From positions 10,416,001 to 10,480,000 of the forward strand of contig OX597827.1 of assembly GCA_951406725.2 (NCBI GenBank): DNA of 64,000 nt, written 5' to 3'. Positions within the stretch are counted from its first letter, which is position 1. Every line of letters begins with the position of its first letter. Below the pieces are notes generated by a model. It worked only from the letters and a program-made list of their open reading frames with translations, made no database searches and was not told the origin of the DNA. This stretch comes from Octopus vulgaris (taxonomy: Eukaryota). Positions 53,276 to 62,750 of this stretch are shown in pieces. The translations under genes and the position numbers were made by a program.

Positions 53276-53336
53276 TTATCATATCGGACCCGATTTCAGA
53301 GTTAATTCATAAGAACCTTCTCTTCGTCAGTGATAA
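53276..53336 (-). ncRNA. Type I hammerhead ribozyme motif with a canonical core
   Basis: ttatca-CTGACGA-agag-[18 nt]-ctct-GAAA-tcgggtccga-TA-tgataa. All three stems pair. Confidence 0.82.
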
Positions 53337-59248: not shown

Positions 59249-59470
59249 TCAATATAGGGTGGCAAAAAATTTCGCAGAATTTTTTTGCCACCAGCGGCCT
59301 AGTGGGAAAAAAGTAAATAGTCATAGACCATTTATAAATTCAACAGCAAAATTAAGGAACGGCCATAATAGGCCATTCAACCCACTAGAAATAACAGCCA
59401 AGGCTTCAACCGCAAAACAATATTAATTCCGTAAACCAGGAGAAAATTTAAAAAACATTTACCCTGTAAT

Positions 59471-59573
59471 ACTTTATACGATGCATTGTTTCGTCTATTC
59501 TTTAATGGTAAATCAACCTGATTAAATTAAATCAAGCTAATCTTCCATAGGCCAGTAGATTCATCAGTAAAGT
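59471..59573 (-). ncRNA. Mirror copy of the hammerhead with two stem mismatches
   Basis: CTGATGA-atcta...tagac-GAAA-caatgcatcg-TA, i.e. G10.1>A and one G>A in stem III. Confidence 0.7.
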
Positions 59574-59870
59574 CAGCCAGATCGGGGCAGATATTTTCAC
59601 GAGGCAGTTCCACTACTGTCTCGGCAATATCTGACCTAAAATTTTCAAATCATCGCACTCGCGCCAAATTTATAGGCAGCAAATATAAGCTGCCGATTCC
59701 ATTACAGAATTAAACAGAAAAATTTTCTGTTTAATTCTGTAATGGAATCGGCAGCTTATATTTGCTGCCTATAAATTTGGCGCGAGTGCGATGATTTGAA
59801 AATTTTTGGTCAGATATTGCCGAGACAGTAGTGGAACTGCCTCGTGAAAATATCTGCCCCGATCTGGCTG

Positions 59871-59973
59871 ACTTTACTGATGAGTCTACTGGCCTATGGA
59901 AGATTAGCTTGATTTAATTTAATCAGGTTGATTTACCATTAAAGAATAGACGAAACGATGCATCGTATAAAGT
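59871..59973 (+). ncRNA. Type I hammerhead ribozyme with a canonical core
   Basis: acttta-CTGATGA-gtcta-[hairpin insert]-tagac-GAAA-cgatgcatcg-TA-taaagt. GUA cleavage triplet, predicted cut after 59967. Confidence 0.88.
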
Positions 59974-60096
59974 ATTACAGGGTAAATGTTTTTAAATTTT
60001 CTCCTGGTTTACGGAATTAATATTGTTTTGCGGTTGAAGCCTTGGCTGTTATTTCTAGTGGGTTGAATGGCCTATTATGGCCGTTCCTTAATTTTG

Positions 60097-60138
<42 letters not shown>

Positions 60139-60199
60139 AGAGACGGAGATGTACTTGCATAGCAAGTGATTTGATCTGAGATCGTGTGCTGAAACGAAA

Positions 60200-60487
60200 A
60201 CAATTGCAGCATGGAAGGTGTTTGTAAGCCATTTAAGAAACACACAAAAGCCGTTCGATTCACTTCAACATTTAAGTTTAATTTGTCAAAATATTTTCGT
60301 CGCTTTAAGATCGCGACCTGTTCACTGACAAAAATCTGTGCTGCATCTTGGATTTTTGTCAGTGAACCGGTCACGGTCTTAAAGCGACGAAAATATTTTG
60401 ACAAATTAAACTTAAATGTTGAAGTGAATCGAACGGCTTTTGTGTGTTACTTAAATGGCTTACAAACACCTTCCATGCTGCAATTGT
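60200..60487. repeat. Palindrome with 137-bp arms and a 14-bp spacer
   Basis: Arms 60200-60336 and 60351-60487, with few mismatches. Confidence 0.95.
60282..60332 (-). ncRNA. Hammerhead variant with a G3-C8 swapped core
   Basis: tttgtca-GTGAACA-g-gtcgc-gatcttaaa-gcgac-GAAA-atat-TT-tgacaaa. The mirror copy at 60355-60405 (+) is mutated. Confidence 0.65.
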
Positions 60488-60670
60488 ATAGGGAGAGATT
60501 TCACACAAAAAAAAAGACGAAGAAAGGTGGTGTAGACAACAAAAAGATGTATTAGTTTAATGGTTGAGAAGTGAAAAAGTCTTTAAAGTTTTGAGCCTAT
60601 GCTCTTCCACAGAAAGAAACAAGGAGAGAAAATAAAGAATGTGTAGTGGCTAGCGATTTATCATGGCGAA
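60487..60670 (-). mobile_element. (TA)n-anchored element of the 18245-18440 family, with a decayed HHR-like motif at 60581-60616
   Basis: cttt-CTGTGGA-a-gagc-atag-gctc-AAAA-ct-TT-aaag; ends CTCTCCCTATA. Confidence 0.65.
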
Positions 60671-61580: not shown

Positions 61581-61958
61581 ATGGGTTCCATTTACATGAC
61601 ACCAGCAACTGCCACGACTACGATTTCATGGGTGCAGTTGACATGAGACACTGGCCACAATCATGACTACAAAGTCTCTTGGTTTGATGAGTTTCCTCAA
61701 GCACCAAAGATCTTGGTCACATGTCATCACCTCTGGGAAGCTCAACATTCAAAGGTCATGACACTGGTAGTGGCCACGATTATGATTTCACGAATGCTAT
61801 TCACATGACACTGGCAATGGTTATGACCATGATTTTATTTGGCTTGACGAGTCTTTTCAAGCACAGCATATTGCCAAAGGTCTTGGCCATTTGTCATCCC
61901 CTTCGTCAGGCCCAACATTCAAAGATCATGCTTCACCACCTCGTCACACACATACTTA

Positions 61959-62750
61959 TACATATGAAGGGACAAAAATAAATTTCTGAGAATTAGACAG
62001 AAGAATCACTTGAAACCTCACCCTTGTATTGTCTTCTTTATTTATTTTGGTGATGTATAACAATTTACATTTGTATCTAATAAGGTCTAATACATATGAA
62101 GGGACAAAAATAAATTTCTGAGAATTAGACAGAAGAATCACTTGAAACCTCACCCTTGTATTGTCTTCTTTATTTATTTTGGTGATGTAAAACAATTTAC
62201 ATTTGTATCTAATAAGGTCTAATACATATGAAGGGACAAAAATAAATTTCTGAGAATTAGACAGAAGAATCACTTGAAACCTCACCCTTGTATTGTCTTC
62301 TTTATTTATTTTGGTGATGTATAACAATTTACATTTGTATCTAATAAGGTCTAATACATATGAAGGGACAAAAATAAATTTCTGAGAATTAGACAGAAGA
62401 ATCACTTGAAACCTCACCCTTGTATTGTCTTCTTTATTTATTTTGGTGATGTAAAACAATTTACATTTGTATCTAATAAGGTCTAATACATATGAAGGGA
62501 CAAAAATAAATTTCTGAGAATTAGACAGAAGAATCACTTGAAACCTCACCCTTGTATTGTCTTCTTTATTTATTTTGGTGATGTATAACAATTTACATTT
62601 GTATCTAATAAGGTCTAATACATATGAAGGGACAAAAATAAATTTCTGAGAATTAGACAGAAGAATCACTTGAAACCTCACCCTTGTATTGTCTTCTTTA
62701 TTTATTTTGGTGATGTAAAACAATTTACATTTGTATCTAATAAGGTCTAA
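61959..62750. repeat. Tandem array, 6 x 132 bp
   Basis: Units start at 61959, 62091, 62223, 62355, 62487 and 62619. They are identical except for one alternating T/A site. Confidence 0.97.

What the first reader, a model, noticed from the sequence alone, without database searches (positions are those of the whole stretch)
60200..60487. Second palindrome with a hammerhead whose core has a compensatory C3G/G8C swap
Seen: the minus strand at 60282-60332 reads tttgtca-GUGAACA-g-gucgc(gaucuuaaa)gcgac-GAAA-auau-UU-ugacaaa. It has a 7-bp stem I, a 5-bp stem II and a palindromic AAAATATTTT stem III, all spaced as in a type I HHR with a 1-nt insertion after A9. The core is GUGAACA rather than CUGANGA. 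Both arms show G3 and C8; the + arm has additionally lost A9 and one stem II pair. Known: positions 3 and 8 form a Watson-Crick pair in the active hammerhead, and compensatory swaps can retain some activity. Inference: this is a natural G3-C8 hammerhead family that standard CUGANGA motif searches would miss.
Basis: partly seen in the sequence, partly recalled or inferred. Interest (0 to 1): 0.85.

Follow-up and report, generated by a model that had tools for sequence, protein, structure and literature searches.

The report
Octopus retrotransposon's swapped-core hammerhead ribozyme
This palindrome is a short insertion of a young, multi-thousand-copy Penelope-type jumping gene in an octopus; every branch of the family sampled carries a hammerhead-shaped RNA with two paired core letters swapped (G3-C8 instead of C3-G8), and sister families use U-A or C-G at the same place, so it is likely a working self-cutting RNA, though cutting is untested.

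Summary
Confirmed and extended. The minus strand at 60282-60332 is a type I minimal hammerhead with G3-C8; the + arm is a damaged inverted copy. The swap is the family state. Two patterns give 2,906 exact matches in the genome; 195 of the 200 listed are G3-C8 and none is C3-G8.

The motif lies in the pseudo-LTR of a Penelope-like retrotransposon (reverse transcriptase plus GIY-YIG, ORF about 1,070 aa), 56 nt before the start codon. The window holds a 5'-truncated inverted pair with a tail and a target duplication.

Two sister octopus families carry U3-A8 and C3-G8 at the same place, with compensated stem II. This argues that the 3-8 pair of the active fold is under selection. Engineered G3-C8 is partly active (PMC11167929, PMC9901934).

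Against strong activity: most insertions were copied from uncleaved RNA, folding energies do not favour the dimer, and one sister family has lost A9.

I found no natural G3-C8 in the papers I could search; one key paper was unavailable. This scan noted G3-C8 before, in phages and behind other Penelope-type genes. Verdict: a new variant of a known kind; cleavage untested.

The parts
60132..60143 (+). Left copy of the target-site duplication (TATAGGGAGAGA; one base at each end is ambiguous), next to a (TA)n tract
   Evidence: Same 12-mer at 60487-60498
60143..60347 (-). Main copy of the pseudo-LTR 3' part of a Penelope-like element: 5' boundary at AG|ATGCAGCAC, hammerhead, 5' UTR, first 30 codons of the ORF, long 3' end
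   Evidence: 93% identical over 206 nt to the ORF-linked pseudo-LTR in L121; family ends
60143..60199 (-). 'Tail' present on one arm only; copies end either at GCAATTGT or about 55 nt further at CATCTCCGTAA
   Evidence: Two 3' end classes; tail described for Penelope-like elements in PMC8557442 and PMC11167929
60143..60232 (-). Start of the element's ORF (30 codons, MAYKHLP...), cut off by the element end
   Evidence: The same frame continues into the RT-GIY-YIG ORF in L120 and L121
60282..60332 (-). Type I minimal hammerhead motif with intact G3-C8 core; predicted cut between 60289 (U17) and 60288
60326..60332 (-). Stem I, 5' strand (pairs with 60288-60282)
60318..60325 (-). Core G3 U4 G5 A6 A7 C8 A9 plus the extra G before stem II; G3 = 60325, C8 = 60320
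   Evidence: Sequence; family state
60299..60317 (-). Stem II (5 bp, G10.1-C11.1) and 9-nt loop II
   Evidence: loop II carries most subfamily changes within the motif
60289..60298 (-). G12 A13 A14 A15.1, palindromic stem III (AATATT) and U17
   Evidence: Sequence; stem III is unpaired in the monomer fold
60350..60487 (+). Inverted copy without tail; ends at GCAATTGT
   Evidence: same short end in other inverted copies
60355..60405 (+). Damaged hammerhead copy: G3 (60362) and C8 (60367) kept, A9>C (60368), stem II mismatch (60373)
   Evidence: C at position 9 in 1 of 139 sampled copies; misfolds
60487..60498 (+). Right copy of the target-site duplication

Best explanation
The palindrome is a truncated, inverted-pair insertion of a high-copy Penelope-like retrotransposon of an octopus, and its hammerhead-shaped motif carries a family-wide G3-C8 core pair that likely preserves the active fold, so the RNA is predicted to cut itself slowly after U17, probably as a dimer or with help from the element's protein. 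Shown: the family, its RT + GIY-YIG ORF, the position of the motif in the pseudo-LTR 56 nt before the start codon, the G3-C8 state, and U3-A8 and C3-G8 in sister families. Inferred: (1) the 3-8 pair is kept by selection for the catalytic geometry; (2) stem III forms between two motifs through the AATATT palindrome; (3) cutting is slow or conditional, and serves to process or limit read-through and tandem transcripts rather than to set the ends of new insertions; (4) the window copy arose by target-primed reverse transcription starting inside the ORF start, with two start sites giving the tailed and untailed arms; (5) U17, shared by all relatives examined, may have made G3 tolerable by avoiding a G3-C17 mispair.
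For: Family state: 946 + 1,960 exact matches, reversed controls 0; G3-C8 in 97 of 100 and 98 of 100 listed; 129 of 139 aligned copies are G-C and none is C-G. Link to the ORF: 29 of 30 endonuclease-bearing loci and 7 of 7 long-ORF loci carry the GTGAACA motif; GIY-YIG PF01541 E = 1.6e-5, above the curated cut-off; the pseudo-LTR continues into the ORF in L120 and L121. Covariation: a sister family (about 50% aa identity) has TTGAAAA-g-gttgc..gcaac-GAAA in 11 of 20 loci; another (52-58%) has CTGATGC-g-gtcac..gtgac-GAAA in 15 of 15. The three families form one clade (SH-aLRT 100, quick tree). Distant relatives have C3-G8 (L193, L194, L197) or U3-A8 (L195, L200). Over 10 motifs, 57 of 57 cells of stem II plus the 3-8 pair are paired (3-8: CG 4, UA 4, GC 1); 0 of 500 shuffles reach this and slid controls give 21-60%. 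No shared non-CpG change falls in the 28 core, stem II and stem III positions, while loop II changes in 5 of 9 columns. Literature: C3G/G8C partly restores cleavage of a lizard Penelope-like hammerhead, which cuts only with protein (PMC11167929); the G:C swap was the only rescue in that region of a full double-mutant scan (PMC9901934); G3-C8 was more active with G17 than with C17, data not shown there (PMC3884650).
Against: No cleavage was observed, and the runs offered were contigs only, which cannot show RNA ends. Of 30 copies picked by a downstream anchor, 21 run through the whole core, 4-5 more start inside the motif upstream of the cut, 2 start downstream, and only one locus (two arms) starts within 3 nt of the cut. 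Insertions therefore come mostly from uncleaved RNA. Turner energies put the active-type dimer (-25.4 kcal/mol) above two monomers (-27.6) and an alternative dimer (-32.7). The C3-G8 sister family and L195 have C at position 9, and L194 has G4, so the core is relaxed in this clade. The 10 motifs were chosen by me for looking like hammerheads, and G3-C8 is a single evolutionary event among them. The within-family constraint test is weak, because the flanking UTR also has few shared changes (3 of 49). In 6 of 11 metagenome loci no motif was recognised.
Confidence: 0.7

Rival explanations
1. The fold is real and conserved but works mainly as a structural signal (protein binding, translation or packaging control in the 5' UTR), and G3-C8 is catalytically dead or negligible in cells.
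For: Insertions derive mostly from uncleaved RNA. Catalytic mutants did not affect insertion in vitro and no RNA ends were found at the cut site for the lizard element (PMC11167929). C9 and G4 variants occur in relatives. The dimer is not favoured by folding energies.
Against: Positions 3 and 8 pair in the full-length hammerhead structure (PMC9901934), yet they covary three ways across the clade. G12, A13 and G10.1-C11.1 are invariant in all 10 rows, and G5/A6 in every motif read.
Confidence: 0.22
2. The motif is a decaying hammerhead: two unrelated mutations at 3 and 8 were fixed in the master lineage by drift and amplified with it, and the restored pair is coincidence.
For: All copies descend from few masters (median 3.5% from the majority letter), so uniformity among copies is not itself selection. 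G3-C8 is one event.
Against: Only the two partner positions differ from the core consensus, they form a Watson-Crick pair, and the rest of the core and the stems are intact. The sister families show the two other pairs at the same place.
Confidence: 0.06
3. A chance look-alike inside an inverted repeat.
For: No Rfam hammerhead match.
Against: 0 hits in 200 shuffles. The motif sits 41-101 nt before the start codon in seven related elements, the usual place for hammerheads of Penelope-like elements.
Confidence: 0.01

Closest known systems
Minimal type I hammerheads of Penelope-like elements (Cervera and de la Pena 2014, PMC4209133)
   Same: Located in the pseudo-LTR; extra nucleotide between 9 and 10.1; G10.1-C11.1; short palindromic stem III that needs a dimer; many solo copies and opposite-strand pairs.
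   Different: Core is GUGAACA. The rows of the paper's representative alignment that I read (supplement parts 1-2 of 3) have C3-G8, U3-A8 or U3-G8, and none has G3-C8. Stem I is longer (7 bp).
Natural U3-A8 core variants (Perreault 2011, PMC3088659; Schistosoma Cercyon elements, PMC4209133)
   Same: A compensatory change of the same 3-8 tertiary pair; U3-A8 also occurs here in a sister family.
   Different: G3-C8 is a double transversion from C3-G8, with no wobble intermediate available directly.
Hammerhead of the Anolis Poseidon element PAc and its engineered C3G/G8C mutant (Frangieh 2024, PMC11167929)
   Same: Hammerhead next to the ORF start; two internal RT start sites giving an optional tail; insertion from uncleaved RNA.
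   Different: There the swap was made in the lab and partly rescued activity; here it is the natural state of thousands of copies. Here the motif lies wholly in the 5' UTR, the tail is about 55 nt (30-40 nt described), and the protein has the CX2-5CxxC linker that Poseidon lacks.
Neptune/Nematis-type EN+ Penelope-like elements (Craig 2021, PMC8557442)
   Same: C-terminal GIY-YIG, C-x3-C-x2-C linker, (TA)n targets, inverted 5'-truncated copies, tail on one end.
   Different: Clade placement was not tested against named reference elements; the hammerhead core is non-canonical.

Membership tests
Type I hammerhead ribozyme | Three-way junction with stems I and II, ends open in stem I | tested here: met
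   Minimum-energy fold shows both stems; stem II covaries across relatives
Type I hammerhead ribozyme | Core U4 G5 A6 A9 G12 A13 A14, A15.1-U16.1, H17 | tested here: met
   Minus arm has all of them; 137 of 139 copies have A9 and 139 of 139 have U17. The + arm lacks A9.
Type I hammerhead ribozyme | Watson-Crick pair between positions 3 and 8 | tested here: met
   G-C here; U-A and C-G in relatives; 9 of 9 cells paired
Canonical-core hammerhead (CUGANGA consensus; Rfam models) | C3 and G8, and a match to an Rfam hammerhead model | tested here: not met
   No C3-G8 copy found; no Rfam hammerhead hit up to E = 10, though Rfam also missed the neighbouring canonical motif
Type I hammerhead ribozyme | Site-specific self-cleavage | not testable with these tools
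   Only contigs were available; 5' ends of genomic copies show no clear peak at the cut site
Type I hammerhead ribozyme | Tertiary contact between loop II and stem I | not tested
   Loop II varies between subfamilies; minimal Penelope-type motifs usually lack this contact (PMC6155905)
Minimal hammerheads of Penelope-like elements | Extra nucleotide after A9, G10.1-C11.1, palindromic short stem III, location in the pseudo-LTR | tested here: met
   features listed in PMC4209133
Minimal hammerheads of Penelope-like elements | Active as a dimer | tested here: inconclusive
   The dimer can be drawn (6-bp shared stem III) but is not the lowest-energy state; direct tandem copies exist (L061)
EN+ Penelope-like retrotransposon | Single ORF with RT and C-terminal GIY-YIG endonuclease | tested here: met
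   GIY-YIG Pfam hit above cut-off. RT was recognised by eye from its motifs (YVDD etc.); Pfam gave no RT hit.
EN+ Penelope-like retrotransposon | Pseudo-LTR partial tandems, inverted 5'-truncated copies, optional tail, AT-rich targets | tested here: met
Neptune/Nematis clades | CX2-5CxxC linker before GIY-YIG | tested here: met
   CQSNCAVC in P0003; definition from PMC8557442
Neptune/Nematis clades | Phylogenetic placement with reference elements | not tested
   The tree holds no named reference elements
Retrozyme (non-autonomous, non-coding hammerhead repeats) | No protein-coding partner within the element | tested here: not met
   The motif is part of an RT-EN coding element

The most novel reading that the evidence does not exclude
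An octopus retrotransposon family of thousands of copies runs on a catalytically active hammerhead with a fully inverted G3-C8 core pair, not yet reported in nature. Its clade has tried three Watson-Crick pairs at 3-8 plus C9, G4 and U15.1-A16.1, which would show that Penelope-type hammerheads are under selection for the catalytic fold and that whole families are invisible to CUGANGA searches.
Probability: 0.45. Interest if true: 0.68.

Novelty: new variant of a known kind. Interest (0 to 1): 0.52.

Why it matters
What hammerheads do in endonuclease-bearing Penelope-like elements is an open question. Craig 2021 calls their function unclear, and Frangieh 2024 found cleavage dispensable for insertion in vitro. 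The 3-8 pair belongs to the full-length catalytic fold, so three different pairs in three sister families argue that this fold is selected. The families also give a ready natural series (G-C, U-A, C-G with C9) in near-identical scaffolds for kinetic tests. In practice, descriptors and Rfam miss at least 2,900 motifs in one animal genome, so elements described as lacking hammerheads should be searched again with G3-C8 and other core variants. The surprise is moderate: the swap is known to work partly in the lab and U3-A8 is known in nature.

Tried and rejected
Rfam scans returned only hairpin and microRNA look-alikes, and no hammerhead family.

A coding constraint as the cause of the swap was rejected. 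One frame is open through the motif in the 9-nt-loop subfamily, but the ORF-bearing subfamily has a 1-nt shorter loop and the real ORF starts 56 nt after the cut site.

A canonical-core ancestor inside the family was not found. One search covered only the 9-nt-loop type (11 C3 copies, all C8); for the 8-nt-loop type only 100 of 1,960 matches were seen.

The two window arms as a cis dimer was rejected: they are on opposite strands, and a read-through RNA folds into one long hairpin.

No ORF remnant of the element lies in the window (tblastn).

Read laying gave contigs only. Its variant table was cut and listed no core positions, so it says nothing about the core in other organisms; it shows only that runs under four organism labels hold the family.

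The careful tree did not finish, so the quick tree was used. The order of events (C3-G8 or U3-A8 ancestor) was not tested.

Stem I covariation was not counted, because the automatic alignment was off by one there.

Papers. Not held: Lunse 2017 on about 150,000 Penelope-linked variants, which is the paper most likely to contain natural G3-C8; also Przybilski and Hammann 2007, Hammann 2012, Arkhipova 2017, Lee and York 2008 (ids recalled or taken from reference lists). Searches for natural G3-C8. Seen: PMC4209133 main text parts 1-2 of 4 and supplement file 2 parts 1-2 of 3 (file 1 not available); PMC11167929 parts 1-2 of 4; PMC2920678 part 1 of 2; passages only of PMC3088659, PMC8557442, PMC9901934, PMC3884650, PMC6765202, PMC6155905, PMC2377424, PMC6257768. 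Supplements of the other papers were not seen and could list G3-C8.

Full report
Observation. The minus strand 60332-60282 has a 7-bp stem I, GUGAACA, one extra G, a 5-bp stem II, GAAA, a palindromic AAUAUU and U17. The + arm keeps G3 and C8 but has C9 and a stem II mismatch. A descriptor scan of the window found this motif as the only GTGANCA hit and none for the mismatched cores CTGANCA or GTGANGA; 200 shuffled windows gave no such hit. The 51-nt motif folds into stems I and II, with stem III open (z = -2.86). Rfam reports no hammerhead here, nor at the canonical motif in the neighbouring palindrome.

The family. The host genome is 2.8 Gb. A protein 98% identical to the element's ORF is named Octopus vulgaris by its source, so the host is an octopus. 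With positions 3, 7, 8 and the extra base left free, one pattern gave 946 matches and a second, for the 8-nt-loop subfamily, gave 1,960, with reversed controls at 0. G3-C8 was present in 97 and 98 of the first 100 listed, and the rest were single changes. A downstream 33-mer occurs 3,922 times. C3 in the 9-nt-loop context occurs 11 times, always with C8. Among 139 aligned copies (153 minus 14 rows from loci selected for C3), 129 were G-C, 5 G-G, 2 T-C, 2 G-T, 1 A-C and none C-G; median divergence was 3.5%. The swap is thus the state of the master elements, not a quirk of this copy.

The carrier. [quoted passage not shown] 29 of 30 endonuclease-bearing loci and 7 of 7 long-ORF loci carry the G3-C8 motif; among 13 more diverged loci only 2 passed the strict scan. 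In L120 and L121 the same sequence continues downstream into the ORF start, so it is a pseudo-LTR, with the predicted cut 56 nt before the ATG. Copies end at either of two sites about 55 nt apart, are often paired with an inverted truncated copy, and sit in (TA)n. These are the hallmarks described for Penelope-like elements (PMC8557442; PMC11167929). The window locus is such a pair: a tailed minus copy (60347-60143), an untailed + copy (60350-60487) and a 10-12 bp target duplication. The window holds no RT or endonuclease sequence.

Covariation. Searching the genome with a related protein from Octopus bimaculoides revealed two sister families. One has cta-TTGAAAA-g-gttgc..gcaac-GAAA-attt^tag (U3-A8; 11 of 20 loci). 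The other, with intact ORFs of about 1,310 aa, has ggacca-CTGATGC-g-gtcac..gtgac-GAAA-gaactt^tgg (C3-G8 but C9; 15 of 15 loci). The three families form a clade (SH-aLRT 100, quick tree), with the G3-C8 family branching first. Five of 11 metagenome relatives show a motif at the same place: three C3-G8 and two U3-A8, two of the five read by eye. In seven elements the cut lies 41-101 nt before the presumed ATG. Across 10 motifs, all 57 cells of stem II and the 3-8 pair are paired, beyond all 500 shuffles and all slid controls. I chose these rows for looking like hammerheads, one row lacks position 3, and one (L192) is not linked to an ORF. Within the family, shared non-CpG changes fall in loop II (5 of 9 columns, about four events) and none in the core, stem II or stem III (0 of 28). 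The one stem I entry is a T-run alignment artefact, and the UTR has 3 of 49, so this test alone is weak.

Mechanism. Positions 3 and 8 pair in the full-length hammerhead structure, and the G:C swap was the only rescue in that region in a complete double-mutant scan (PMC9901934). In a Penelope-like hammerhead, single mutants were dead, the double partly active, and cutting needed the protein (PMC11167929). I infer that the octopus motif cuts slowly after U17, with stem III supplied by a second motif or stabilised by the element's protein. All relatives examined have U17, and G3-C8 was reported to be more active with G17 than with C17 (PMC3884650, data not shown there), so U17 may have allowed the swap; this is a hypothesis. 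Cutting does not set the ends of insertions: about 25 of 30 copies picked by a downstream anchor extend upstream past the cut, and only one locus starts within 3 nt of it. Its likely role is to process or limit tandem and read-through transcripts.

Against. No cleavage data exist. Folding energies favour monomers or another dimer over the active-type dimer, though such models treat multiloops poorly. C9, G4 and U15.1-A16.1 in relatives show a relaxed core. A mainly structural role (0.22) or drift (0.06) remain possible.

Comparison and novelty. It works like the minimal hammerheads of Penelope-like elements and meets all their sequence and position features, but not the C3-G8 consensus; membership as a ribozyme awaits a cleavage assay. 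Natural U3-A8 is published (PMC3088659, PMC4209133). My searches and the rows read in the PMC4209133 supplement showed no natural G3-C8, but Lunse 2017 could not be read. Unchecked notes of this scan report G3-C8 in phages and behind Penelope-type genes of other genomes, so the swap may be recurrent. What this locus adds is a high-copy animal family with sister-family covariation. Verdict: new variant of a known kind, interest 0.52.

Noticed in passing
window 59444-60000 (motif at about 59871-59964, + strand): A second, unrelated palindrome (278-nt arms, 98% complementary) with a canonical CTGATGA hammerhead, a long loop II and a CGATGCATCG stem III; probably another Penelope-type pseudo-LTR pair. 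The G3-C8 element sits next to the (TA)n tract that follows it.
   Followed up: partly
window about 53290-53336, - strand: A third hammerhead-like motif with a canonical core (CTGACGA) and a tcgggtccga stem III.
   Followed up: no
L174-L188 (e.g. L185:1636-1670): A very young sister family with intact ORFs of about 1,310 aa, whose hammerhead has C3-G8 but C at position 9; C9 also occurs in L195, so it may be a tolerated variant when an extra G follows.
   Followed up: partly
L197:4964-5016 and L194:1674-1722: Relatives with further core variants: U15.1-A16.1 with a TAGCTA palindrome (L197) and G at position 4 (L194, single contig).
   Followed up: no
L061 (G000:C2:17.908-17.913 Mb): A head-to-tail array of about 30 units of about 166 bp, each with the G3-C8 motif; a transcript would hold many motifs in direct orientation, the natural substrate for dimer cleavage.
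   Followed up: partly
window 60221-60292, laid contigs X10 and X14: Runs guessed to be RNA show excess A-to-G in the element's sense strand (e.g. 60234: 7% and 29% against under 0.1% in two other runs and 1 of 132 genomic copies), a hint of A-to-I editing of double-stranded transcripts from the palindromes. There is no same-individual DNA control.
   Followed up: partly
window 60346-60348 and family 5' boundary: 14 of 49 distinct junctions read G-AG|ATGCAGCAC with unrelated upstream DNA, whereas ORF-linked copies read CTAAC..TTCTCAG|ATG or TTCTTAG|ATG. This is either a 3' splice site with a very short first exon or a transcription start with a cap-derived G.
   Followed up: partly
L192:8363-8405 (same place as L116): Another palindromic element with a U3-A8 hammerhead (TTGAAAA, cgcgtc stem III), not linked to an ORF here.
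   Followed up: no
window 61955-62750: A near-perfect tandem repeat of a 132-bp unit, about six copies.
   Followed up: no
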